Shown: in pieces, positions 33,898 through 50,509 of the stretch
Numbering within the stretch: the first letter of the stretch is position 1
Layout of the letters: each line of letters opens with the position of its first letter
Source of the DNA: Vicinamibacteria bacterium
GTDB taxonomy: Bacteria > Acidobacteriota > Vicinamibacteria > Fen-336
Assembly (NCBI GenBank): GCA_041481445.1
Contig: JBGPBV010000007.1
Coordinates: 5,365 to 69,364 of the forward strand
Reading direction: 5' to 3'
DNA length: 64,000 nucleotides
The notes under the pieces: generated by a model
The model's input: only the letters and a program-made list of their open reading frames with translations
Told to the model about the DNA's origin: nothing
The model's database searches: none
Made by a program: the position numbers and the translations under genes

Positions 33898-35097
33898 CTA
33901 CTCCGCCCCTCCGCCCCCCTGCTTGCGCAGGAACGCGGGGACGTCGAGGTCGAGGCGTCCGCCCCCGGAGGCCGCCTTCGTGGTCGGGGTCTTGCGGTAG
34001 AACCCGCCCGCCTCCGTCGGCGCCATCGACGCCGACTGCGCGGAGGGGCCGACGTAGTTGGCGAGATCGACGGGAGTCGGCGCCACCTTGCGCGAGCCCT
34101 TGTTGAAGCCGGTGGCGATCACGGTGACCTTGACCGCGTCCCCCATCGACTCGTCGGTCACGATGCCGTAGATCACGTTGGCCTCGGGGTCGGCGACCTT
34201 GGTGATCAGGCTGGTGGCCTCGGAGGCCTCGGCCAGGCTGAGGTCGATCCCGCCCGTGATGTTCACGATGATCCCGCGCGCCCCCTCGATCGAGCTGTCC
34301 TCGAGCAACGGGTTGGAGACGGCGCGCTGGGCCGCCTCCACCGCGCGGTTCTCTCCCTCCCCGATCCCGGTGCCCATCACCGCATGGCCCATCCCCTTCA
34401 TCACCGCGCGCACGTCCGCGAAGTCGAGGTTGATCTGGCCGGGGACGGTGATGATGTCCGAGATGCCCTGCACGGCCTGGCGCAGGACGTCGTCGGCCAC
34501 GCGGAAGGCCTCGGAGACGGGGGTGTGCCGCGCGACCGTCTGCAGGAGCCGGTCGTTGGGGATCGCGATCACGCTGTCCACGCACTCGCGGAGCTGGGCC
34601 AGGCCTTCCATGGCCTGGGCCATGCGCCGCTTGCCCTCCAGGCTGAAGGGCAGCGTCACCACCGCCACCGTCAGCACGCTGCCGTTCTCGCCTCCGAGCT
34701 GGCTGGCAATGGAGGCGACCACGGGGGCGGCGCCCGTGCCCGTCCCCCCGCCGAGGCCGGTGGTGATGAACACCATGTCCGACCCCTCGAGGGCGTCGCA
34801 CACCTTCTCGGTGTCCTCCACCGCGGCCTGCCGCCCCACGTCGGGGTTGGCGCCCGCGCCCAGGCCCTTGGTGAGCTTGCCCCCGATCTGGATCTTGACC
34901 GGGGCGCGGTTGGAGCGCAGGGCCTGGAGGTCGGTGTTGATGGCGATGAACTCCACGCCCTGCAGGCCCGAGGCGATCATGCGGCTGATGGCGTTGCCGC
35001 CGCCGCCGCCCACGCCGACCACCTTGATGTGGGCGCCGCGCGTCTCGTCGTCCGCGAAGGTGATGCGGCCGGGACCGTCGTTCATTTCGTTCGGCAT
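33898..35097 (-). CDS. ftsZ: Cell division GTPase FtsZ
   Basis: GGGTGTG tubulin signature ([19 protein letters not shown]), T7 loop NLDFADV, conserved C-terminal peptide [19 protein letters not shown] upstream. Confidence 0.97.
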
Positions 35098-35104
35098 GAT
35101 TCTC

Positions 35105-35305
35105 CTAAATCCCCTCCGAGCAGCCGGTCATGAACCCGCAGCGCAGGCAGATGCGCTTGCAATGGGACGCGATCACGGAGGACCCGCACATCTCGCAGCG
35201 AGGCTCGCCCTCGCGGGGCAGGAACACGCCCGGACGGACGGCCTCCCGCACGCGCTGGTGCGGCACCGGGACCGGCGGAAAGACGACGCCCTCCTTGACG
35301 TCCAT
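35105..35305 (-). CDS. Small Cys-rich (zinc-ribbon-like) protein encoded between ftsA and ftsZ
   Basis: 66 codons with about 90% GC3 (genome-typical coding bias). Cys pattern CEMC...HCKRIC..CLRC..GC. The stop codon TAG lies inside the ftsZ Shine-Dalgarno (TAGGAGA). Confidence 0.45.
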
Positions 35306-35477
35306 CGCGCCTCCTTTTTTGGCAGGGGGGGCACTCGCGGTGTGCCCGAATGGGCGCTTCGCGTCCCCCCCTGCAACCCCCCTCGCGCGACCGCCGCCGC
35401 CTTCGGCGGCGCCGGCGCGCTCTACGTGTCCTCCTGCCCTCCTGATGTCCTCCTGCCCTCGCGCCCTGCCTTCTGCT

Positions 35478-36725
35478 CTAGAAGAAGTCCGACAGCCAAC
35501 CCATGAGACGTCCCGTGACCTTTCCGAACGTGCCCGTCGCCGCCGGGCGCATCAGGCCGACCCCTCGGCGCTCACGGTTGTGGAAGCCCCAGAGGACGAG
35601 GCCCACCGCCGTCGAGTAGACGGGGCTGGCCACCACGTCGACCAGCCCCCCGATGCCGGACGGGGTTCCACGCCGCACGGGCATGTCGAAGATCTGCTCG
35701 GCGATCTCCGGCATGCCCTCGAGGATGGCGCCCCCGCCCGTCAGCACCACGCCGCTGTTCAGGCTGCGATCGAACCCGGCCCGTCGGATCTCGGTGAGGG
35801 CGAGCTGGCAGATCTCCTCCGCGCGCGCCTGGAGGACGTCGCCCAGCACCTGGCGCGCCATGATCCGGGGCTTCCGCCCGCCCACGGAGGGGACCTCGAT
35901 GGAGTCGTCCTCCGGGATCATCGAGACCAGCGCGCACCCGTGCTTCTTCTTGATCTTCTCCGCCTCGTTGACGGGGGTCCGGAGGGCCACCGCCACGTCG
36001 TTCGTGAAATGCTCGCCCCCGACCTGTAACACGGCGGTGTGCCAGAGCGAGCCCTTTTCGAAGATGGCCAGGTCGGTCGTCCCGCCCCCGATGTCGACCA
36101 GGGCCACCCCCAGCTCCTTCTCGTCGGGGGTCAGGCAGGCCTCGGCGGCGCTCAACTGGGTGAGGACGGTGTCCGTGACCTCCAGGCCGGCGCGGTTGAC
36201 GCAGGTGACGGTGTTCTGGGCGGCGGTGGAGGCGCAGGTGATGACGTGGACGTTGACCTCCAGCCGGGTGCCCGTCATCCCGCTGGGATCGCCGATGCCG
36301 TCCTGGTCGTCCACCACGAACTCCTGGGGCAGGACGTGCAGGATCTCGCGGTCGAGGGGGATGGAGACGGCCTTGGCCGCCTCGATCACGCGCGCGACGT
36401 CGTCGCGCTCGATCGTGCGGTTCTTGCTGGAGACGGCGATGACGCCACGCGAGTTGAACCCGCGGATGTGGGTGCCGGCCAGTCCGACGTAGGCGGACCC
36501 GATCTCGACCCCCGCCATCAGCTCCGCCTCCTCCACCACCCGCTTGATGGAGTCGACGGTGGCCTCGAGGTTGATCACGACGCCCTTGCGCAGGCCCTTG
36601 CTCTCCGCCTGGCCGATGCCGATGATGTCGAGCCGGCCCTCGTCGGTGATCTCGGCCACGATCGCGCAGACCTTGTGCGTGCCGACGTCGAGCCCCACGA
36701 CGTAGCGTTCTTTCTTCTTTGCCAC
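35478..36725 (-). CDS. ftsA: Cell division protein FtsA
   Basis: Actin-like ATPase motifs (VVGLDVGTHKV, DIGGGTTD, GVVLTGGGA) and a C-terminal amphipathic tail. Confidence 0.95.
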   Translation of the reverse strand: MAKKKERYVVGLDVGTHKVCAIVAEITDEGRLDIIGIGQAESKGLRKGVVINLEATVDSIKRVVEEAELMAGVEIGSAYVGLAGTHIRGFNSRGVIAVSSKNRTIERDDVARVIEAAKAVSIPLDREILHVLPQEFVVDDQDGIGDPSGMTGTRLEVNVHVITCASTAAQNTVTCVNRAGLEVTDTVLTQLSAAEACLTPDEKELGVALVDIGGGTTDLAIFEKGSLWHTAVLQVGGEHFTNDVAVALRTPVNEAEKIKKKHGCALVSMIPEDDSIEVPSVGGRKPRIMARQVLGDVLQARAEEICQLALTEIRRAGFDRSLNSGVVLTGGGAILEGMPEIAEQIFDMPVRRGTPSGIGGLVDVVASPVYSTAVGLVLWGFHNRERRGVGLMRPAATGTFGKVTGRLMGWLSDFF

Positions 36726-36733
36726 TTGGGTTC

Positions 36734-37783
36734 CTATCCCCCTTCCTGTCCGGTGTGGATCGGCTCCATGCGGGGCCCCGTCGGCATCTCGTGCGTGTCC
36801 GGCAGCGCGGCCGGCTCCGGGGTGGGCGGTCCCCCCGGCTTGGAGGTCGCCACCGGCTCCGGCGGCTCCTTGGCGTAGATGCGGTCGCGGAAGCGCAGGT
36901 CGAAGTACTCCGCCCGCGGGCAGCGCTCCCGCAGCTCCTGGCGCAGCCCGAGGAACGTGACCAGGCGGCTCCGGTAGGGCGGCGCCCCCATCCGTACGAC
37001 CTCGCCCGCCCCTCGCAGCACGACCCGCAGGTCCCCCGAGGGCTCGACCTCGACCTCCGAGATCTCCGCGGCCAGGTCGCCCACGTCCTGCAGGAGCGCG
37101 CCCGCCCGCGCCGCCCGGTCCCGGCGGGCCTCCGCGTCGAGCTTGGCCAGGCCGCGCACGATGGGCAGGTCGAAGGCGGCGGTGCGCGGGCCGTAGATGT
37201 CGACGAGGGCGCCGTCGCCGTCCATGAGGTAGAGGCGGTCCATCTCGGCCAGGGCCAGCGGGACGCGCTCGTGGATCTCCACGCGCAGGGTGTCGGGCAG
37301 GGTGCGCGACACGGTCGCGTCGGCCACCCAGGGCGACGCGCGCAGCCGGGCCTTGAGGGCGTCGATGTCGAGCCCGAGGATGTTCTCGCCCACGGCCGGG
37401 CCGAGCAGCTCGCGCACCTCGCCCTCGGACAGGAAGTGCCCGCCGCGCACCTCGACCTTGCCCACGCGCAGCCTCTCGCTCGCCATGACCCGCGAGTACC
37501 CGGTCCAGAGCGCGCTGACCCCGATCAGCAGCGCCGCCCCGAGCTGGAGGGCGAGCACGGTGCGATGCGTCCAGCCCCGCCGCCGCGGCCGCACCCGCGC
37601 CCGGCGCGCGGGGCGCAGGAACGGCGCGTCGTCCACGGGGTCCAGGGCCGGGTCGAGGGTGAGGTCGGGCGACGGAGGCACGATGAGACGCCGTTGCGCG
37701 GGCTCGGGGGGCAGCGGATTGCGAATGGTCAAGGATTCGCCCCCGCTTGTCGGGACTTGAGGAGCTCGTCGCCGGCGGTCCAC
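36734..37783 (-). CDS. ftsQ: Cell division protein FtsQ/DivIB (POTRA domain); N-terminus overlaps the murC 3' end
   Basis: Basic cytoplasmic tail, single TM, POTRA-like region ([17 protein letters not shown]) and a beta domain, in the conserved position between murC and ftsA. Confidence 0.8.
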
Positions 37784-39114
37784 ACGCTGCCCGCGCCGAG
37801 GGTGAGCACCACGTCGCCCTCGCGCACCTCGCGGGCCAGGCGGTCGGCCGCCGCCCGCAGGTCGCCCGCGTAGACGACCTGGCGGTGGCCGCGGCGCGCG
37901 ATTGCCTCCGCCAGCGCCTGCGAGGTCACCCCCGCCACCGCCTCCTCGCCCGCCGGGTAGATGTCGGCCAGGAGGAGCACGTCGGCCAGGTGGAAGGCGC
38001 GGCAGAACTCGTCCCAGAGATGGTGGGTCCGCGTGTAGCGGTGCGGCTGGAACAACACCACCGTGCGCCGGCTTCCCGCGCGGCCACGCAGCGTCTCCAG
38101 GGTGGCGCGGATCTCCGTCGGGTGGTGGCCGTAGTCGTCGACCACGAGCACGCCGCCCGCCTCCCCGCGGACCTGGAAGCGCCGGTCGACGCCGGTGAAG
38201 CCGGCCAGGCCCTGGCGGACGTTCTCGAAGGACACCGCCAGCTCGAGCCCGACCGCGACCGCGGCCAGGGAGTTGAGCACGTTGTGGGCTCCGGGCACCG
38301 CCAGCTCGATCTCGCCCAGCGGCTTCTCGCCGCTGGTGGCGAGGTAGGTGGCCTCGCCGGGCCCGAGGCGCACGTCGCGCGCGGAGACCTGGGCCTGCGG
38401 GCTGAGGCCGTAGGTGACGATGCGGCGCTCCACCCGCGGCAGGATGTCCTGGATCGGCCCGTCGTCGAGGCAGAGCACGGCCGCGCCGTAGAAGGGCACC
38501 TTGTTGACGAAGCCGAGGAAGGCCTCCTGCACGTCCGCGAGGTCCCGGTAGGTGTCGAGGTGCTCGCGGTCGATGTTGGTGACCACGGCCACGGTGGGGG
38601 TGAGCTTGAGGAACGAGCGGTCCGACTCGTCCGCCTCCGCCACCATGAAGTCGCCCTTGCCCAGCCGCGCCCCCGAGCCCAGCACGCCCAGCCGCCCGCC
38701 CACCACCACCGTCGGATCCAGCCCGCCCTTGTCGAGGACCATCGCCACCATCGAGGTCGTGGTCGTCTTGCCGTGGCTACCCGCCACCGCCACGCCGTAC
38801 TTGAGGCGCATGAGCTCGGCCAGCATCTCCGCGCGCGGGATGACGGGGATGCCCAGCCGGCGCGCCTCCATCACCTCGGGGTTGGTCGGACGCACCGCGG
38901 TCGAGATCACGACGACATGGGCGCCGGCGACGTTGGCGGCGGCGTGCCCCTCGGCGATCCTCGCGCCCTGCCCGGCCAGCCGGTCGGTCACGGGCGACCG
39001 CCGCTGGTCGGACCCGGAGACGACGTAGCCCAGGTTGAGCAGCACCTCCGCGATGCCGCTCATGCCGCTGCCGCCGATGCCGACGAAATGGATGTGGCGG
39101 ATGTGCCCGAACAT
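37729..39114 (-). CDS. murC: UDP-N-acetylmuramate--L-alanine ligase MurC
   Basis: [32 protein letters not shown] motif. It is the 3' segment of the 1157-aa track ORF. Confidence 0.95.
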
Positions 39115-40184
39115 CACGCCACCTTCCCTTCGAGCAGGTCGGCCACGCGGGCGGCGGCGTCGGGGCGGGCCAGCTTCCGCGCCGCCTCCTCCATCGCGGT
39201 GAGCCGGGCGGGGTCGCCGAGCAGCTCGGTGAGGACGGCGGTCAGGCGCTCGGGCGTGAGGTCCTTCTCCTCGATCATGCGCGCCGCCCCCGCCTCCTCC
39301 AGGGCGCGGGCGTTGCTCGTCTGGTGGTCGTCCGCGGCCTGCGCGAAGGGGACGAGCACCGAGGCCTTGCCGGCCGCCGCCAGCTCGGCGGCGGTGGTGG
39401 CGCCGCTGCGGCACAGGACGAGGTCGGCCTGGGCGAAGCGCGTCTCCATGTCGTCGAGGAAGGGCAGCACCTCCGCCTTGCGTCCGGCCGCGTTGTAGGC
39501 CTCCGCCACCTCGTCGCGGGAGGCGGGTCCGGTCTGGTGGACGATCTTGAGCCGGTCCGGCCCCGGCAGCAGGCGGGCGGCCGCGGTCAGCGTGCGGTTG
39601 ATGATCCGCGCGCCCTGGCTGCCCCCGAAGGTGAGCAGGGTCAGCGGCGGCACGTGCCACTTGGGCACCAGCTTCGCGAAGCCGCCGCGGACGGGGTTGC
39701 CCGTCACCACGCCCTTCTTCCCGAAGAAGCGGCGCGCCTCTTCGTACGAGCAGGCGGCATGGCGCACGAACGGCTTGAGGACGCGGTTGGTGAAGCCGGG
39801 CTTGGCGTTGGGCTCGAGCAGCACCGTCGGGATGCGCAGGAGGGCGGCCACGAGGACGGTCGGCCCGCCCGCGTAGCCGCCGACGCCGAGCACGGCCAGG
39901 GGCCGCAGGCGCCGCACGAGCAGGACGGCCTTGACCATGGCCCACGGCAGCGCGAGGAGGCCCTTGACCATCCGTACGGGCCCGACGCCGTTGAGAGGGA
40001 GGATGGGCAGCAGCTCCAGGTCGTAGCCCGCTTGCGGGACCAGGCGGGACTCGAGTCCCCGCGGCGTCCCCACGAAGACCACGCGCGTCTGGGCGTCGCG
40101 GGCCTTGAGCTCGTCCGCGACCGCGATGCCGGGGAAGAGATGCCCTCCCGTGCCGCCGGCCGCGATGAGGATGGTTCGTGCCAT
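39114..40184 (-). CDS. murG: UDP-GlcNAc:undecaprenyl-PP-MurNAc-pentapeptide GlcNAc transferase MurG
   Basis: [10 protein letters not shown]-terminus and GT28 C-terminal domain. Confidence 0.95.
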
Positions 40185-45219: not shown

Positions 45220-46691
45220 GACTTGCCCGACCGGAGGGCGAGCCGGGACAGGATGTCCCGGGCCACCTGCCGGTCGTCGAAGGGGACCGTGCGGTCCCGC
45301 AGGACCTGGTAGGTCTCGTGGCCCTTGCCGGCGATCACGACCGCGTCGCCCGGCTGCGCCATCTCCAGCGCCCGCGCGATCGCCTCGCGGCGGTCCACGA
45401 TGGCGTGGCGCTCGGCCTTGCGGCCGCCGTTCATCCCCCTCTGTATCTCTTCGAGAATAGCCTCCGGGGGCTCGGAGCGGGGGTTGTCGGAAGTGACGAT
45501 CACGATGTCGCTCAGGCGCGAGGCGACCGCGCCCATGAGCGGCCGCTTGGTGCGGTCGCGGTCGCCGCCGCAGCCGAACACGGTGATGACCCGCGACGGC
45601 CCCAGCTCGCGCACCGTCTCCAGCAGGTTCTTGAGCGCGTCGTCGGTGTGGGCGTAGTCCACGATGACGGTGAAGCCGGCCGCCCCCGGCACGCGCTCCA
45701 GCCGGCCGGGCACGCCGGTCACGGTGGCCAGACCGGCCCGCGCCACCTCGGGGGCCACGCCCAGCGCCACCGACGCCGCGAAGCCGGCCAGCAGGTTCTG
45801 GACGTTGAAGCGCCCGACCAGCGCCGTCTTGACGTCCTGCGCGCCGGAGGGCCCGACGATGCGGAAGCGCGTGCCCTCCAGGCCCAGGCGGATGTCCTCC
45901 GCCCGGAAGTCCGCGGGCCGCTCGAGGCCGTAGGTCCAGACGGGCGCGCGGGCGGCGGAGACGAGGTCTCCCGCGCGGTCGTCGTCGGCGTTGATGACGG
46001 CGCGGCCGTCCGGCCGCAGGAGGTCCGAGAACAGCTTCCGCTTGGCCTGGAAGTACGAGTCCATGTCGCCGTGGAAGTCGAGGTGGTCGCGGGTGAGGTT
46101 GGTGAACACGGCCACGCGGAACTCACAGCCGGCCACGCGCTGGAGCTCCAGGGAATGCGACGAGACCTCGAGCACGGCGTGCGAGCAGCCCTCGTCCACC
46201 ATCTCGCGCAGGAGGGCCTGCAGGTCGGAGGACTCGGGCGTGGTGCGCGTGGCGTCGGCCAGGCGGTCGCCGATCCGGTACTGGACGGTGCCGAGCAGGC
46301 CCACCCGGTGGCCGGCCGCGCGCAGGGCGGCGTCGATCAGGTACGTGGTCGTGGTCTTGCCGTTGGTGCCGGTCACGCCGACCAGCTCGAGAGAGCGCCC
46401 CGGCTGTCCGAGCACCTCCGCCGAGAGCAGGGCCAGGGCCTCGCGGGCGTCCGGCACCCTCAGCCAGGGGCCCCCCGGCTCGGCCTCGCGCTCGGACGCC
46501 ACCGCCGCCGCCCCCTTCTTGCGGGCGGCCTCCACGAACTGGTGGCCGTCCGCGGCCAGCCCCTTGATGGCGACGAACAGCGCCCCCGGTCCCGCCTTGC
46601 GCGAGTCGTGGGTCACGGTCGTGATCGCGGTGGCGGGATCGCCGGCCAGGACCGACCCCGGCAGGCGAAGGGCGAGATCGGCGAGCCTCAT
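45216..46691 (-). CDS. murE: UDP-MurNAc-L-Ala-D-Glu--2,6-diaminopimelate ligase MurE
   Basis: VTGTNGKTTTTYL. DNPR motif (VTSDNPRSE) indicates meso-DAP specificity. 3' part of the 1152-aa track ORF. Confidence 0.93.
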   Translation of the reverse strand: MRLADLALRLPGSVLAGDPATAITTVTHDSRKAGPGALFVAIKGLAADGHQFVEAARKKGAAAVASEREAEPGGPWLRVPDAREALALLSAEVLGQPGRSLELVGVTGTNGKTTTTYLIDAALRAAGHRVGLLGTVQYRIGDRLADATRTTPESSDLQALLREMVDEGCSHAVLEVSSHSLELQRVAGCEFRVAVFTNLTRDHLDFHGDMDSYFQAKRKLFSDLLRPDGRAVINADDDRAGDLVSAARAPVWTYGLERPADFRAEDIRLGLEGTRFRIVGPSGAQDVKTALVGRFNVQNLLAGFAASVALGVAPEVARAGLATVTGVPGRLERVPGAAGFTVIVDYAHTDDALKNLLETVRELGPSRVITVFGCGGDRDRTKRPLMGAVASRLSDIVIVTSDNPRSEPPEAILEEIQRGMNGGRKAERHAIVDRREAIARALEMAQPGDAVVIAGKGHETYQVLRDRTVPFDDRQVARDILSRLALRSGKS

Positions 46692-48751
46692 CGGGCCGCC
46701 GCCCCCAGGGACGCGCTCGCCGTCACCGGAGAGGGCGCGGTCGTGGCCGCTCCTCCGAGATGGAGCACGCAGGTCATGCCCGCCTCGATCTCCGTCCCCG
46801 GCTCCGGCGATTGCGTGACCACGCGGCCGGATCCCTTCAGCTCCACGATGAGGCCGAGGCGGGCGGCGGTGGTCGCCCCTTCCCGCGCCGACCAGCCGCG
46901 CAGGTCGGGCATGCGGTCCGGATACCCGGCCGGGCCGCCGCCGGAGGTGGTGGACCCTGCGCTCGTGTCCGCGGCGGCCGCCGGACGGTAGGCCGCCGGA
47001 TGCGCCGTCTCCGGCCGGAACCCGGTGGCGCGCAGGACGCGGCCGGGGTCGTCGGGAGGCACGGCCAGCCGGCGCAGCGCGGGCTCGGCGATGCGCGCGA
47101 ACAGCGGGGCGGCCACGTCGCCGCCCTCGTTGGCGGGCCCGCGCGGGGTGTCGAGCGACACGAGCACGACGATGGCCGGGCGCGAGGCGGGCACGAACCC
47201 CACGAACGAGGCCACGTGATCGACCATCGAGTAGTGGCCGGACGCATCGACCTTCTGGGCGGTGCCCGTCTTGCCGGCCACGGCGTACCCGGGGAAGGCG
47301 GCGCGGTGGCCCGTCCCCCGCAGGACCACCCCGCGCAGGATGTCGGTCAGGGTGTCCGCGGTGGCGGCGTCCACCACCCGCCGCACCGCGGTCGGGCGGG
47401 CCTCGCGCACCACCCGTCCCTCGCTGTCCTCGATCTCGCGCACGATGATCGGCTTCATGAGGTACCCGCCGTTGGCCACCGCCGCCACCGCCGCCGTCAT
47501 CTGCAGGGCGGTCACGCCGATCTCCTGGCCGAAAGCGAGGGTGGGCAGGCTCAGGGCGCTCCAGCGGTTGGGCGGGCGCAGGAGGCCGCCGGACTCCCCC
47601 GGCAGCTCCACGCCGGTGGCGGCTCCGAAGCCGAACTGCCGCATGTAGCGGTTGAAGTTGTCGCGCCCCAGCCGCTGGGCGATGCGGGCCACGCCCACGT
47701 CGCTCGACTTGGCGATGACGTCGCGGAAGGTGAGCTGGTCGAAGACCTTGTGATCGTTGATGCGGATGCCCGCCACCTCGAGCGCGCCGTGGCCGCAGTC
47801 GATCACCTCGTCGGGATCGACCACTTTCTCCTCGAGGCCGGCGGCGGCGGTGATGATCTTGAACATGCTGCCCGGCTCGTAGGCGTCGGCGACCGCGCGG
47901 TTGCGCCAGCGCGAGCTCGGATAGGCGCCGAAGCGGTTCGGGTTGAAGGTGGGGCGGTTGGCCAGGGCCAGGATCTCGCCCGTGCGCGGGTCCATGACCA
48001 CCGCCACTCCCGACTGCGCCCCCGTGTCCTGCACCGCCTTCTCCAGCTCCCGCTCGGCCACGTGCTGGATGGCGTCGTCGATGGTGAGCACGACGGTGTG
48101 GCCCTCGGTGGACGGCTTCTCGGTGTGGCCGAGCGCGCGCCGGCGGGCGTCCGTGCGGATCACCACCTTGGCCGCGCGGCCGCGCATCACGTCCTCGAAC
48201 GCGTACTCGATCCCGCTCATGCCCGTGTTGTCGAGGCCCACGTAGCCGATGACGTGCGCGGCCAGCTCGCGCTGCGGGTAGTAGCGGCGGTTCTCGGTCA
48301 GGAAGCCGACGCCCTCGAGCTGGAGGGCGCGCACCGCGCGTGCGGTGCCGGGGTCCACCTTTCGCCGCACCCACACGAAGGCGCGCGTCTTCTCGAGCTG
48401 GGCGTGCAGCTCCTTGCGCGCGGAGGCGTCGAGCCCGAGGGCGCGGGCGAGGGCGGCGGCGGTGCCCGCCGCGTCCTCGATGTCCTGGGGCACCGCGTAG
48501 ATGCTCTCCGCGTCCACGCTCACGGCCAGGGGATGGCCGCTCCGGTCCACGATCGCCCCCCGGCGCGGGTCGAGGTTGATCGTGCGCTCGCTCTGGCGCG
48601 CGGCCTGGCGCTCGTAGGAGGCGCGGTCCATGAGCTGGATCTGGACCAGGCGCATCACCACCACCAGCGCCCACAGGCAGGCGGAGAGGGCCACCAGCAT
48701 GAGGCGCAGCCGCACCATGCGCTCGCGGGCGGACAAGGGGGCCGGGGTCAT
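46688..48751 (-). CDS. ftsI: Peptidoglycan D,D-transpeptidase FtsI (class B PBP3) with C-terminal PASTA domain
   Basis: N-terminal anchor and dimerization domain. Active site SMFK, SSD, KTGT(A). C-terminal ~65-aa PASTA-like module (MPDLRGWSAREGATTAARLGLIVELKGSGRVVTQSPEPGTEIEAGMTCVLHL). Confidence 0.9.
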   Translation of the reverse strand: MTPAPLSARERMVRLRLMLVALSACLWALVVVMRLVQIQLMDRASYERQAARQSERTINLDPRRGAIVDRSGHPLAVSVDAESIYAVPQDIEDAAGTAAALARALGLDASARKELHAQLEKTRAFVWVRRKVDPGTARAVRALQLEGVGFLTENRRYYPQRELAAHVIGYVGLDNTGMSGIEYAFEDVMRGRAAKVVIRTDARRRALGHTEKPSTEGHTVVLTIDDAIQHVAERELEKAVQDTGAQSGVAVVMDPRTGEILALANRPTFNPNRFGAYPSSRWRNRAVADAYEPGSMFKIITAAAGLEEKVVDPDEVIDCGHGALEVAGIRINDHKVFDQLTFRDVIAKSSDVGVARIAQRLGRDNFNRYMRQFGFGAATGVELPGESGGLLRPPNRWSALSLPTLAFGQEIGVTALQMTAAVAAVANGGYLMKPIIVREIEDSEGRVVREARPTAVRRVVDAATADTLTDILRGVVLRGTGHRAAFPGYAVAGKTGTAQKVDASGHYSMVDHVASFVGFVPASRPAIVVLVSLDTPRGPANEGGDVAAPLFARIAEPALRRLAVPPDDPGRVLRATGFRPETAHPAAYRPAAAADTSAGSTTSGGGPAGYPDRMPDLRGWSAREGATTAARLGLIVELKGSGRVVTQSPEPGTEIEAGMTCVLHLGGAATTAPSPVTASASLGAAAR

Positions 48752-49146
48752 CAATTCCGCTCTCCGGGCACCGGCGATCCCGCCGGGCCGCCCAGCTCCT
48801 TCGCCATCTGCGCCCCCGGTGCGGCCGGACGCGGCTGCTCGATCACGATCACGCGGCCGGCCGGCGGCGACTGCAGGCCCAGCTCGCGGGTGGCGATCGC
48901 CTCCACCCGGTGCAGGTTCTCCAGGCTCGCCTTCTCGAGGCGCAGCTTCCGGTTCTCCTCGAGCAGCCGCTCGCGCTCGCGCGACATCCGGTCCTGGGCG
49001 CGCGAGGTCTCGCGGATCTTGAGGTGGGGCCAGGCGTAGAGCACGAGGCCGCCCACCAGCGTCATCACCAGCAGGAGCAGCCACCACAGGTCGCGGCTGG
49101 CGCGGGGATCGACCTCGCGCACGACCTGGGAGTTGTCGATCTTCAC
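48751..49146 (-). CDS. ftsL: Cell division protein FtsL
   Basis: 131 aa, single TM ([19 protein letters not shown]) followed by a coiled coil. GTG start. ATGA coupling to ftsI. Confidence 0.75.
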
Positions 49147-50065: not shown

Positions 50066-50509
50066 CTAGATCCCGAACCCGGAGAGCACCCGCCCGTCCT
50101 CGTCCGTGAACGGCTCCTTCTTGAACAGGCGCTCGGTGAGGCGCTTCTGGTTCCAGACCGCAAGGTGGTTCTGCAGGCCGAGCACGCTCACGTCGCCGGC
50201 CATGGCCGCGCTCTCGCGCAGGAGCTGGGGGAGCACGACGCGGCCCTGCTTGTCCATCGTCACCGTCTGGCCGAAGAAGTTCACGCGGTCGAGGAAGCGC
50301 AGCTTCGAGGGATTGGTCGACGGCACCTCGGCCAGGCGGCGCTCGATCTCGAGCCACACCGCCATCGGATACACGCGCACGTATTCGCCGGTGACGCTGG
50401 TGACGAACAGCTCCGCGCCGTACTGCTGCTCGATGAGCAGACGGAAGCCGTTCGGGACCTTGAGACGTCCCTTGTCGTCGACGCGCGCCGGATGGTTGCC
50501 GCGCAGCAC
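50066..50509 (-). CDS. mraZ: Transcriptional regulator MraZ (canonical copy, first gene of dcw operon)
   Basis: Two MraZ/SpoVT-AbrB-like repeats (DDKGRLKVP and DKQGRVVLP). GTG start (track shows MLRGNHP). Confidence 0.9.

What the first reader, a model, noticed from the sequence alone, without database searches (positions are those of the whole stretch)
35105..35305. Unannotated-type small Cys-rich ORF between ftsA and ftsZ, with its stop codon inside the ftsZ Shine-Dalgarno
The ftsA-ftsZ intergenic region is unusually long (380 nt). It contains a 66-codon same-strand ORF with about 90% GC in third positions, which is the genome's coding signature and an argument against a chance ORF. The peptide has six Cys arranged CxxC...CxxxC..CxxC, as in a zinc ribbon or rubredoxin-like knuckle. 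Its TAG stop is part of the TAGGAGA ribosome-binding site 8 nt before the ftsZ ATG, which would translationally couple it to ftsZ. A small metal-binding protein co-translated with FtsZ would be a candidate new division regulator.
Basis: seen in the sequence. Interest (0 to 1): 0.65.

Follow-up and report, generated by a model that had tools for sequence, protein, structure and literature searches.

The report
Conserved zinc-ribbon microprotein gene between ftsA and ftsZ
The 66-codon ORF between ftsA and ftsZ is a real, strongly conserved gene for a small cysteine-rich zinc-ribbon protein, found in that position in nearly all relatives of this soil acidobacterium (class Vicinamibacteria) and usually translated in tandem with FtsZ, so it is a credible but untested accessory factor of cell division.

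Summary
On the minus strand, a 66-codon ORF (35105-35305) lies in the 380-nt ftsA-ftsZ gap. Its GC3 is 92.5%, it has its own AAGGAGG ribosome-binding site, and its TAG stop lies inside the TAGGAGA that precedes the ftsZ ATG.

It is a real gene. There are 346 homologous clusters at 90% identity. All 54 loci fetched through the small protein show ftsA-small-ftsZ or the part their contig holds. Of 66 loci fetched through FtsZ alone, 62 carry it. dN/dS is 0.067 for the C-terminal 30 codons, with synonymous sites saturated.

The C-terminal domain (C-x2-C-G-x6-HCKR-x-C-x2[11 protein letters not shown]) is predicted to be a zinc ribbon. It is a remote homologue of the HVO_2523 zinc-finger microproteins. 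Its six-Cys spacing matches the zinc/redox tail of class II ribonucleotide reductase.

Tight stop-to-start coupling (25 nt or less) holds in 42 of 53 loci. Four lineages nested among carriers lack the gene, so it is dispensable there.

The function is inferred, not shown. The best reading is a non-essential accessory protein made with FtsZ that acts on FtsZ or FtsA. Public records already call the gene, as "hypothetical protein" or wrongly as "ribosomal protein S27AE". No paper found describes it.

The parts
35105..35305 (-). Small ORF, 66 aa plus TAG: [66 protein letters not shown]
   Evidence: GC3 0.925. (346 homologous clusters). (dN/dS 0.067 for the C-terminal 30 codons, 0.46 for the N-terminal half). 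(the identical protein is in public collections).
35108..35197 (-). Codons 37-66: zinc-ribbon domain with C37, C40, C53 and C56 as the inferred Zn ligands, plus the invariant H48-C49-K50-R51 and T60-G61-C62-S63-E64-G65 segments
   Evidence: invariant columns. (synonymous codons vary at invariant residues). (pLDDT 79-91, strands 43-47, 50-53, 59-61). (only zinc ribbons among fold matches). (hhalign 98.8% to HVO_2523-like proteins).
35267..35293 (-). Codons 5-13: N-terminal motif E-G-x-x-F-P-P-V-P in a segment predicted to be disordered
   Evidence: E5, G6, P11, P13 invariant in A1. (pLDDT about 50-55). (motif kept even in fast-evolving C4-only relatives). (replaced by another sequence in clade L044-L052).
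35310..35316 (-). Ribosome-binding site AAGGAGG of the small ORF, 4 nt before its ATG
   Evidence: An SD-like sequence lies before the small ORF in 44 of 54 loci, usually overlapping the ftsA stop codon.
35101..35107 (-). TAGGAGA: stop codon of the small ORF fused to the ftsZ ribosome-binding site; the ftsZ ATG is at 35097
   Evidence: The same design (TGAGGAGCATG, TAGGAGGnnnnATG, TGATG) recurs in relatives, with a gap of 25 nt or less in 42 of 53 loci.
33898..35097 (-). ftsZ (399 aa), last gene of the dcw cluster
   Evidence: Tubulin and FtsZ_C Pfam domains on the orthologue in L001.
35478..36725 (-). ftsA (415 aa)
   Evidence: FtsA and SHS2_FTSA Pfam domains on the orthologue in L001.
35306..35477 (-). 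172-nt ftsA-to-small-ORF spacer: a lineage-specific insertion. It holds two 15-nt direct repeats, GAGGGCAGGAGGACA (35460-35446 and 35441-35427), and two GC-rich hairpins (about 35420-35385 and 35373-35322).
   Evidence: MFE -80.9 kcal/mol, z -2.3. (absent from L005, partly shared with L004). (median spacer 12 nt over 54 loci). (not repeated elsewhere in the window or in other loci).

Best explanation
The ORF is a genuine gene for a 66-aa cytoplasmic microprotein. It has a disordered N-terminal arm carrying a short conserved motif (EGxxFPPxP). Its C-terminal 30 residues form a zinc ribbon, with C37, C40, C53 and C56 as the inferred Zn ligands. The ribbon displays a second, nearly invariant site made of H48-C49-K50-R51 and T60-G61-C62-S63-E64-G65. 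The domain is a remote homologue of the HVO_2523-type zinc-finger microproteins.

In Vicinamibacteria the gene has become fixed between ftsA and ftsZ at the end of the dcw operon. There the ftsA stop, the small ORF and the ftsZ start are chained by overlapping stop and ribosome-binding-site sequences. Ribosomes that finish the small ORF are therefore delivered to the ftsZ start, and the protein is made in step with FtsZ.

The most likely role is a non-essential accessory of the Z ring that binds FtsZ or FtsA through the invariant face of the ribbon. The H48/C49/C62 site would act as a second-metal or thiol-redox switch.

Shown: it is a coding gene under purifying selection, its position is conserved, the coupling architecture exists, it is homologous to the HVO_2523-like domain, and it has been lost repeatedly. 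Inferred: zinc binding, real translational coupling, and any contact with FtsZ or FtsA.
For: Coding and selection:
- GC3 is 0.925.
- There are 346 clusters at 90% identity.
- dN/dS is 0.067 with dS about 1.4 over 52 distinct sequences of the C-terminal 30 codons. All four Gly codons and five Arg codons are used at invariant residues.

Position:
- All 54 loci fetched through the small protein show ftsA-small-ftsZ or the part their contig holds (53, plus L055).
- 62 of 66 loci fetched through FtsZ alone carry the gene.
- It is the penultimate gene of a complete mraZ-to-ftsZ dcw cluster.

Conservation: in clade L044-L052, FtsA and FtsZ are only about 70% identical to the window's, yet the last 30 residues of the small protein are 90% identical.

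Coupling: the median ftsA-stop-to-start gap is 12 nt and 44 of 54 loci have an SD-like sequence there. The small-stop-to-ftsZ-start gap is 25 nt or less in 42 of 53 loci.

Fold: AF2 pLDDT is 79-91 over residues 31-60 with three strands. The fold matches are zinc ribbons such as TFS4, Rpb9, Csl4 and ribosomal proteins.

Homology: hhalign gives 98.8% probability and E 9e-17 against HVO_2523-like proteins. All 32 family members tested hit NF041914.

The second site behaves as one unit. In the fast-evolving relatives, H48, C49, C62 and their neighbours are lost together, while the four ribbon Cys and the N-terminal motif stay.

Precedent: the C4 zinc ribbon of haloarchaeal CdpC binds FtsZ1 directly (bioRxiv 10.64898/2026.07.16.738847).

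Weak lead: FtsZ N250 is S or T in 3 of the 4 lineages that lost the gene, against 2 of 112 carriers.
Against: - No interaction, localisation or expression data exist, so the division role rests on gene position only.
- Four lineages nested among carriers have ftsA directly followed by ftsZ. A sizeable subfamily has lost the H/C/C site and evolves fast. The protein is therefore dispensable in places.
- HVO_2523-like relatives sit in unrelated contexts: after a gamma-carbonic-anhydrase-like gene, next to a PolA-like gene, and near thioredoxin-like and PRPP synthetase genes. The domain is not in itself a division domain.
- Coupling is lost in 11 of 53 loci.
- The FtsZ N250 correlation gives Fisher p of about 1.6e-4 before correction for about 520 columns, and it ignores phylogeny.
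- The metal is unknown. The spacings CX3CX2C and CX2CX5C would also suit an Fe-S cluster (my own knowledge, not tested).
Confidence: 0.55

Rival explanations
1. The protein is a redox or metal-handling module that merely travels with the dcw operon. Like the six-Cys tail of class II ribonucleotide reductase, the ribbon holds one Zn with four Cys. C49 and C62, helped by H48, would form a thiol-disulfide shuttle or a second metal or Fe-S site, serving some process other than Z-ring control.
For: - The spacing matches the NrdJd tail of S. nassauensis in 5 of 6 positions (Cys 920, 923, 933, 936, 939, 945 of 947 against 37, 40, 49, 53, 56, 62). In that tail, four Cys are proposed to hold Zn and 933/945 are the proposed redox pair (PMC5704485).
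- 24 of 32 family members hit the last 30 positions of the NrdJ model NF005122, with best E 0.0037.
- The H-C-K and C-S-[DE] residues are conserved across the whole HVO_2523-like superfamily, whatever the gene context.
- H48, C49 and C62 are lost together in the degenerate subfamily.
Against: - All matches to the NrdJ model are far below threshold (10-13 bits against a cutoff of 859).
- There is no RNR gene, nor a thioredoxin gene adjacent to the ORF. I only surveyed the dcw cluster and its neighbours, not the whole window.
- A position locked between ftsA and ftsZ in 62 of 66 unbiased loci, with chained translation, is hard to explain for an unrelated function.
- This rival is not exclusive: a redox-sensitive Z-ring accessory would satisfy both readings.
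Confidence: 0.2
2. The ORF is chiefly a translational device. Its translation from a strong ribosome-binding site opens the mRNA and hands ribosomes to the ftsZ start, setting the FtsZ:FtsA ratio. The peptide itself would have little or no function.
For: - The stop overlaps the ftsZ ribosome-binding site, with gaps of -4 to 8 nt in most loci. In many loci the GGAG lies only 1-2 nt from the ATG, too close for independent initiation, which implies termination-reinitiation.
- The ftsA stop likewise overlaps the ribosome-binding site of the small ORF.
Against: - dN/dS is 0.067 with saturated synonymous sites, and 22 residues are invariant. A pure spacer ORF would not be constrained in this way.
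- The domain has homologues elsewhere that are not upstream of ftsZ.
- Clade L044-L052 keeps the protein 90% identical in its last 30 residues although ftsZ there is about 73 nt away with its own GGGAGG.
- There is no significant mRNA structure around the ftsZ ribosome-binding site (z +0.28).
- Four lineages manage with ftsA directly coupled to ftsZ.
Confidence: 0.1
3. The protein is a nucleic-acid-binding zinc ribbon that regulates transcription or translation of dcw genes, as many small zinc ribbons do (TFS or TFIIB type, ribosomal proteins).
For: - The best fold matches are zinc ribbons of transcription factors, RNA polymerase subunits, the exosome subunit Csl4 and ribosomal proteins.
- K50, R51 and R/K/H55 are conserved basic residues.
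- There are weak hits to S27ae and L32.
Against: - All these matches are generic, with Foldseek E of 0.13 or more and HMM scores below threshold.
- By my count from the sequence, the domain has a net charge of only about +1.
- There is no helix-turn-helix or other nucleic-acid-binding element.
- Abundance tied to FtsZ by coupling suits a stoichiometric partner better than a regulator that is needed in few copies.
Confidence: 0.1
4. It is a chance ORF in a GC-rich intergenic region, not a gene.
For: High-GC genomes carry many long spurious ORFs. Several antisense shadow ORFs overlap this very region.
Against: Codon-position GC signature, its own ribosome-binding site, 346 homologous clusters, conserved position and dN/dS of 0.067.
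Confidence: 0.01

Closest known systems
HVO_2523 family zinc-finger microproteins (NCBIfam NF041914; Pfam PF28087 as listed), named after a Haloferax volcanii protein
   Same: They share the signature C-x2-C-G-x6-H-C-K-x2-C-x2-C-G-x4-C-S-[DE] at the C-terminus of a very small protein. Profile-profile probability is 98.8%. All 32 family members tested hit NF041914.
   Different: Scores are far below the family cutoff (17 bits against 60). The tail is CSEGI rather than RDCSDP. This protein has an added conserved N-terminal arm (EGxxFPPxP) and a fixed position between ftsA and ftsZ, whereas HVO_2523-like genes sit in unrelated contexts. The function of HVO_2523 is itself unknown: its deletion gives pleiotropic glycerol-growth, biofilm and swarming phenotypes (PMC6562870).
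[quoted passage not shown]
   Same: Both have six Cys in about 26 residues at the very C-terminus. Five of six are in the same register, two CxxC pairs are proposed to hold Zn, and two further Cys are proposed as a redox pair (PMC5704485). There are weak HMM matches to the last 30 model positions.
   Different: The third Cys is shifted by one residue. The 150-220-aa remainder of that domain is missing, and no RNR gene is nearby. Similarity is below threshold, so homology is not established.
CdpC (HVO_0399), the FtsZ1 membrane anchor of haloarchaea
   Same: A C4 zinc ribbon binds FtsZ directly, and Zn-ligand mutations abolish binding (bioRxiv 10.64898/2026.07.16.738847). This is the best precedent for 'zinc ribbon acts on FtsZ'.
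   Different: CdpC is archaeal, much larger, has two ribbons plus an amphipathic helix and a long linker, and is not encoded next to ftsZ. I did not detect or test any sequence relation, so it is an analogy only.
Small bacterial FtsZ modulators (MciZ, SulA, ZapA-D, SepF, SidA/DidA)
   Same: They are small accessory proteins, often dispensable and specific to a lineage, that tune Z-ring assembly. Some are encoded in or near the dcw cluster.
   Different: The ORF matched no Pfam family and only sub-threshold zinc-ribbon models in NCBIfam, none of them a division-protein family. As far as I know, none of these modulators is a zinc ribbon and none is inserted between ftsA and ftsZ (my own knowledge). 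No paper describing such a gene turned up.

Membership tests
HVO_2523 family zinc finger protein (NF041914 / PF28087) | Score at or above the curated cutoff of the family model (60 bits) | tested here: not met
   17.1 bits, E 0.0038 for the window protein. The best of 32 family members reaches E 6e-4. No precomputed PF28087 hit is on record for the family member P0055 or its relatives.
HVO_2523 family zinc finger protein (NF041914 / PF28087) | Signature C-x2-C-G ... H-C-K-x2-C-x2-C-G-x4-C-S-[DE] at the C-terminus | tested here: met
   All of these residues are invariant in A1 and invariant or nearly so in A2. hhalign A1 against A2 gives 98.8% probability and E 9e-17 over 38 columns. A2 was drawn from hits to the A1 profile, so this test is partly circular.
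HVO_2523 family zinc finger protein (NF041914 / PF28087) | Zinc binding | not testable with these tools
   Only inferred from the CxxC knuckles and the AF2 ribbon.
Zinc ribbon fold | Two CxxC knuckles flanking a three-stranded antiparallel sheet | tested here: met
   The AF2 model has strands 43-47, 50-53 and 59-61, with C37/C40 before strand 1 and C53/C56 between strands 2 and 3. pLDDT is 79-91. Foldseek top hits are all zinc ribbons, but the best E is only 0.13.
NrdJ cysteine-rich domain, C-terminal six-Cys array | Six conserved Cys with the spacing CX2C-X9-C-X2-C-X2-C-X5-C at the chain end | tested here: inconclusive
   Here the spacing is CX2C-X8-C-X3-C-X2-C-X5-C, with five of six in register. 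HMM matches to NF005122 positions 931-960 have E 0.0037-0.09.
NrdJ cysteine-rich domain, C-terminal six-Cys array | Part of a 150-220-aa domain fused to, or encoded beside, a class II RNR | tested here: not met
   The protein is 66 aa and its neighbours are ftsA and ftsZ. No RNR gene is among the genes of 13.8-50.5 kb that I scanned.
Known FtsZ-binding accessory proteins (ZapA-D, SepF, MciZ, SulA, ZipA, CdpC) | Sequence membership in one of their families | tested here: not met
   No Pfam family at E up to 10. NCBIfam gives only sub-threshold zinc-ribbon matches. There is no relative among solved structures.
Known FtsZ-binding accessory proteins (ZapA-D, SepF, MciZ, SulA, ZipA, CdpC) | Direct binding to FtsZ or FtsA and localisation at mid-cell | not testable with these tools
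Ribosomal protein S27ae (label given by JGI/IMG) | Score at or above the cutoff of NF001669 (54 bits) | tested here: not met
   13.1 bits, E 0.073. The label is a mis-annotation caused by generic zinc-ribbon similarity.
Translationally coupled leader or spacer ORF without a functional product | Conserved stop/start overlap but an unconstrained amino-acid sequence | tested here: not met
   The overlap is present, but the amino-acid sequence is strongly constrained, with dN/dS 0.067.

The most novel reading that the evidence does not exclude
A new kind of bacterial Z-ring accessory: a zinc-ribbon microprotein made together with FtsZ by termination-reinitiation. It would bind FtsZ or FtsA through an invariant His/Cys/Cys site that senses thiol redox state or metal supply, gating cytokinesis in a major lineage of soil bacteria. 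This would also give the widespread HVO_2523-like six-Cys mini-domain, and by extension the NrdJ tail, a first general mechanism as a portable redox or metal switch.
Probability: 0.2. Interest if true: 0.75.

Novelty: new variant of a known kind. Interest (0 to 1): 0.55.

Why it matters
ftsA-ftsZ is one of the most conserved gene pairs in bacteria. Here a third gene is wedged between them, chained to both by overlapping stop and start signals, in nearly all sampled members of a whole class of abundant soil Acidobacteriota. In one distant clade its zinc-ribbon domain is better conserved than FtsZ (90% against about 70% identity).

If the protein acts on the Z ring, it would be the first bacterial zinc-ribbon FtsZ or FtsA partner that I know of. 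It would parallel the newly reported archaeal CdpC, and it would be a natural case of stoichiometry set by translational coupling.

It would also give a functional handle on the HVO_2523-like six-Cys domain, which is widespread but has no known mechanism. The natural losses and the degenerate C4-only copies provide ready-made comparison sets.

If it has nothing to do with division, the finding is still a clean example of a conserved microprotein family that lacks any curated model and is mislabelled in a public database.

Tried and rejected
- Pfam scan of the ORF found no family at E up to 10.
- A profile search of PDB sequences gave only a chance L32 match, E 0.076.
- tblastn of the 34-aa domain against the phage and plasmid collections found nothing. 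The short Cys-rich query may have been filtered.
- Rfam on 34900-35700 gave only a sub-threshold M23 hit on the opposite strand. No sigma-70-like promoter and no minus-strand terminator were found.
- I considered that the 172-nt spacer might be a dispersed REP- or MITE-like element. It is not repeated in the window or in other loci, so it is a local insertion shared only with L004.
- I considered that mRNA structure might sequester the ftsZ ribosome-binding site. The fold is no better than shuffles, z +0.28.
- I prepared a fused small-FtsZ-FtsA AF2 model with a paired alignment but did not submit it.
- P0132 and P0141, apparent FtsA-small and small-FtsZ fusions, are garbled by frameshifts. I rejected them as evidence of natural fusion.
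- A scan for FtsZ or FtsA columns that deviate in the lineages without the gene found an excess (5-9 against a mean of 1.1 in FtsZ). Those lineages sit on long basal branches, so only the triple hit at N250 is kept, as a lead.

Full report
**1. The observation**

All the genes concerned are on the minus strand. ftsQ is 36734-37783, ftsA is 35478-36725 and ftsZ is 33898-35097. A 66-codon ORF runs from the ATG at 35305 to the TAG at 35107-35105. The ftsA-ftsZ gap is 380 nt.

GC by codon position in the ORF is 0.66/0.51/0.925, the same pattern as ftsZ (0.67/0.49/0.97) and ftsA (0.68/0.44/0.95). The 172 nt upstream of the ORF have no such periodicity, and the other two frames of the ORF show the shifted pattern.

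The ORF has its own ribosome-binding site, AAGGAGG at 35316-35310. Its TAG opens the sequence TAGGAGAATCATG, whose ATG starts ftsZ.

The peptide is [66 protein letters not shown].

The window carries a complete dcw cluster: mraZ 50066-50509, ftsI, murE, murF, mraY, murD, ftsW, murG, murC, ftsQ, ftsA, the small ORF and ftsZ.

**2. It is a real gene**

- A search of the 5.8-billion-protein collection returned 346 clusters at E up to 0.01. Nearly all listed members are 62-85 aa, and where named they are from Vicinamibacteria or Acidobacteriota.
- The identical protein is already in public collections, labelled 'hypothetical protein' or, by JGI, 'ribosomal protein S27AE'. The latter label fails its own model cutoff (13 bits against 54).
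- An alignment of 32 diverse members (A1) has 22 invariant columns: E5, G6, P11, P13, C37, E38, C40, G41, H48, C49, K50, R51, C53, C56, G57, F58, M59, G61, C62, S63, E64 and G65.
- At these invariant residues the codons vary freely. Gly41 and Gly57 use all four codons, Arg51 uses five and Leu54 uses five.
- Nei-Gojobori dN/dS over 52 distinct sequences is 0.067 for the last 30 codons, with dS about 1.4 (saturated). It is 0.46 for the N-terminal half.
- The constraint is therefore on the protein, not on the DNA or RNA.

**3. Position and coupling**

Every locus fetched through the small protein that holds enough flanking DNA shows ftsA-small-ftsZ. This covers 50 GTDB species genomes, all Vicinamibacteria or Acidobacteriota MAGs, and 4 metagenome contigs; two of those contigs end before ftsZ.

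For an unbiased test I fetched 80 metagenome loci through FtsZ alone (80-96% identity). Of the 66 with enough upstream DNA, 62 carry the ORF directly upstream of ftsZ.

The usual layout is tight:

- The gap from the ftsA stop to the small-ORF start has a median of 12 nt. The ribosome-binding site overlaps the ftsA stop, for example TTCTTCTGAGGGAGGGGAGATG.
- The gap from the small-ORF stop to the ftsZ start is 25 nt or less in 42 of 53 loci, typically TGAGGAGCATG, TAGGAGGnnnnATG or TGATG.
- In many loci the GGAG is only 1-2 nt from the ATG. That is too close for independent initiation and implies termination-reinitiation. This last step is an inference.

The exceptions are L004, L035 and clade L044-L052. 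In that clade ftsZ is about 73 nt away with its own GGGAGG.

The window's 172-nt ftsA-small spacer is an outlier. L005, whose small protein is 94% identical, has a 9-nt spacer there. The window and L004 share part of an inserted GC-rich hairpin element that is not repeated elsewhere. The 'unusually long' gap is therefore the ORF plus a local insertion.

**4. What the protein is**

The ORF matches no Pfam family and has no relative among solved structures.

AF2 with A1 gives a disordered N-terminal half (pLDDT about 50-55) and a confident C-terminal domain (pLDDT 79-91). The domain has three strands arranged as a zinc ribbon, with C37/C40 and C53/C56 as the two knuckles. Foldseek finds only zinc ribbons (TFS4, Rpb9, Csl4, ribosomal proteins), at weak E-values.

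An exhaustive profile search of 1.84 billion representatives found 132 hits. About 25 clusters are family members. Beyond them lies a broad set of 39-110-aa proteins ending in C[DE]LCG-x7-HCK[LI]xCxxCG[FY]xRDCSDP. These match NCBIfam NF041914 (HVO_2523 family), with E down to 2e-8 but still below its cutoff, and they carry Pfam PF28087 in precomputed annotation.

Profile-profile comparison of the two sets gives 98.8% probability and E 9e-17. All 32 A1 members hit NF041914 below threshold. The domain is thus a remote homologue of the HVO_2523-type zinc finger.

The function of that family is unknown. In Haloferax, the deletion gives pleiotropic phenotypes (PMC6562870). Its members sit in unrelated contexts.

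A second resemblance is to class II ribonucleotide reductase. Twenty-four of 32 members hit the last 30 positions of the model NF005122. The S. nassauensis enzyme has Cys 920, 923, 933, 936, 939 and 945 of 947. Cys 920, 923, 936 and 939 are proposed to hold Zn, and 933/945 are the proposed redox pair (PMC5704485). Five of the six Cys are in the same register as here. This is a lead, not established homology.

**5. Two modules**

The divergent representatives reveal a fast-evolving subfamily (P0130, P0131, P0133, P0136, P0143, P0150, P0152, P0160, P0162, P0188; P0145 keeps C49 but has lost H48 and C62). It keeps the N-terminal EGxxFPPxP motif and the four ribbon Cys. It has lost H48, C49 and C62, and with them K50-R51 and the TG-SEGI tail.

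One of them, P0150 in L059, still lies just after an ftsA that is 89% identical to the window's, 135 nt before ftsZ.

So H48-C49-K50-R51 and T60-I66 behave as one functional site mounted on the ribbon. That site could bind a second metal, act as a redox pair or form a binding face. Where it is present it is almost frozen: in clade L044-L052, FtsA and FtsZ are about 70% identical to the window's, yet the last 30 residues of the small protein are 90% identical. That clade has a different N-terminal half.

**6. Dispensability**

Four FtsZ-fetched loci (L112, L130, L131, L135) have ftsA directly followed by ftsZ, with gaps of 52, 17, 10 and 63 nt and no ORF.

On a neighbour-joining tree of the FtsZ core they are nested among carriers. 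L135 is sister to the carrier L034 at distance 0.022. L112 is sister to L121, whose copy is degenerate. The gene-bearing clade L044-L052 is the outgroup. I read this as three or more independent losses.

The protein is therefore an accessory, not a core divisome part.

In the lineages without the gene, FtsZ N250 (in GEGENRA, 22 residues after the T7-loop NLDFAD) is S or T in 3 of 4, against 2 of 112 carriers. Fisher p is about 1.6e-4 before correction for about 520 columns, and the test ignores phylogeny. It is only a lead.

**7. Mechanism**

The best-supported reading is a cytoplasmic zinc-ribbon microprotein made in step with FtsZ through chained translation. It would act as a stoichiometric, non-essential partner of FtsZ or FtsA, with the invariant H/C/C site as the working surface, possibly sensitive to redox state or metal supply.

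The only direct precedent for a zinc ribbon binding FtsZ is archaeal CdpC (bioRxiv 10.64898/2026.07.16.738847). That is an analogy, not a shown homology.

The rivals are:

- A redox or metal module unrelated to division. This rival is compatible with the main reading in part.
- A pure translational spacer. The amino-acid constraint argues against it, and so does retention of the protein in the clade that has lost tight coupling.
- A nucleic-acid-binding regulator. Only generic fold matches support it.
- A chance ORF. This is excluded.

**8. Novelty**

No paper in the searchable library describes a gene between ftsA and ftsZ of this kind. The family has no curated model.

I rate it a new variant of a known kind. 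It is an HVO_2523-like zinc-finger microprotein with an added N-terminal arm and a fixed, translationally chained place in the dcw operon. Its function remains untested.

Noticed in passing
window 35306-35477 (minus strand): The ftsA-small spacer holds two 15-nt direct repeats, GAGGGCAGGAGGACA (35460-35446 and 35441-35427), each containing AGGAGG. It also holds two GC-rich hairpins (MFE -80.9 kcal/mol, z -2.3). It is absent from L005, partly shared with L004, and not repeated elsewhere in the window.
   Followed up: yes
L004:3199-3328: This close relative (small protein 92% identical) has a second insertion of about 125 nt, G-rich and hairpin-forming, between the small ORF and ftsZ. It breaks the coupling seen in the window. 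The ftsA-small-ftsZ junctions seem prone to such insertions.
   Followed up: partly
FtsZ residue 250 (window codon at 34348-34350, minus strand); loci L112, L130, L131: FtsZ Asn250 is S or T in 3 of the 4 lineages that lost the small gene, but in only 2 of 112 carriers in the main clade. The C-terminal peptide residues L384 and L390 also carry conservative changes in 3 of the 4. The sample is small and not corrected for phylogeny.
   Followed up: partly
L054:1-659; protein P0201: An HVO_2523-like six-Cys domain lies immediately after, and overlaps the stop of, a gamma-carbonic-anhydrase-like hexapeptide-repeat gene. In P0201 it appears fused to the C-terminus of such a protein. This hints that the wider domain family has another recurrent partner.
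   Followed up: no
L056:3-720: A lower-GC (54%) relative of the domain, P0144 (CELCGEPVRVQHCKRICTHCGFQTGCAE), overlaps the end of a gene that looks like a family-A DNA polymerase. This may be a phage or mobile-element context.
   Followed up: no
window 35105-35305; cluster of P0001/P0252: JGI/IMG labels several identical or near-identical copies 'ribosomal protein S27AE', and one relative 'HrpA-like RNA helicase'. These are mis-annotations from generic zinc-ribbon similarity (13 bits against a cutoff of 54).
   Followed up: yes
window 46688-49087 (minus strand): The FtsI/PBP3-type transpeptidase of this dcw cluster carries a C-terminal PASTA domain (residues 725-772, E 1.2e-9). I know that domain mainly from Gram-positive PBP2x and PknB-type proteins.
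   Followed up: no
window 37780-39117 and 36734-37783; L059:382-1281: In the window, murC is followed directly by ftsQ, with no murB or ddl between them. The relative L059 has murB before ftsQ. Gene content at this end of the dcw cluster varies within the group.
   Followed up: no
small protein residues 49-62: C49-x3-C53-x2-C56 has the spacing of the radical-SAM cluster motif, and C53-x2-C56-x5-C62 that of WhiB-like Fe-S proteins (my own knowledge). Binding of an Fe-S cluster rather than a second zinc cannot be excluded from sequence.
   Followed up: no
proteins P0132 (380 aa) and P0141 (96 aa): These look like FtsA-small and small-FtsZ fusion proteins in the databases, but the FtsA and FtsZ parts are garbled. 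They are most likely frameshift or assembly artefacts rather than natural fusions.
   Followed up: partly
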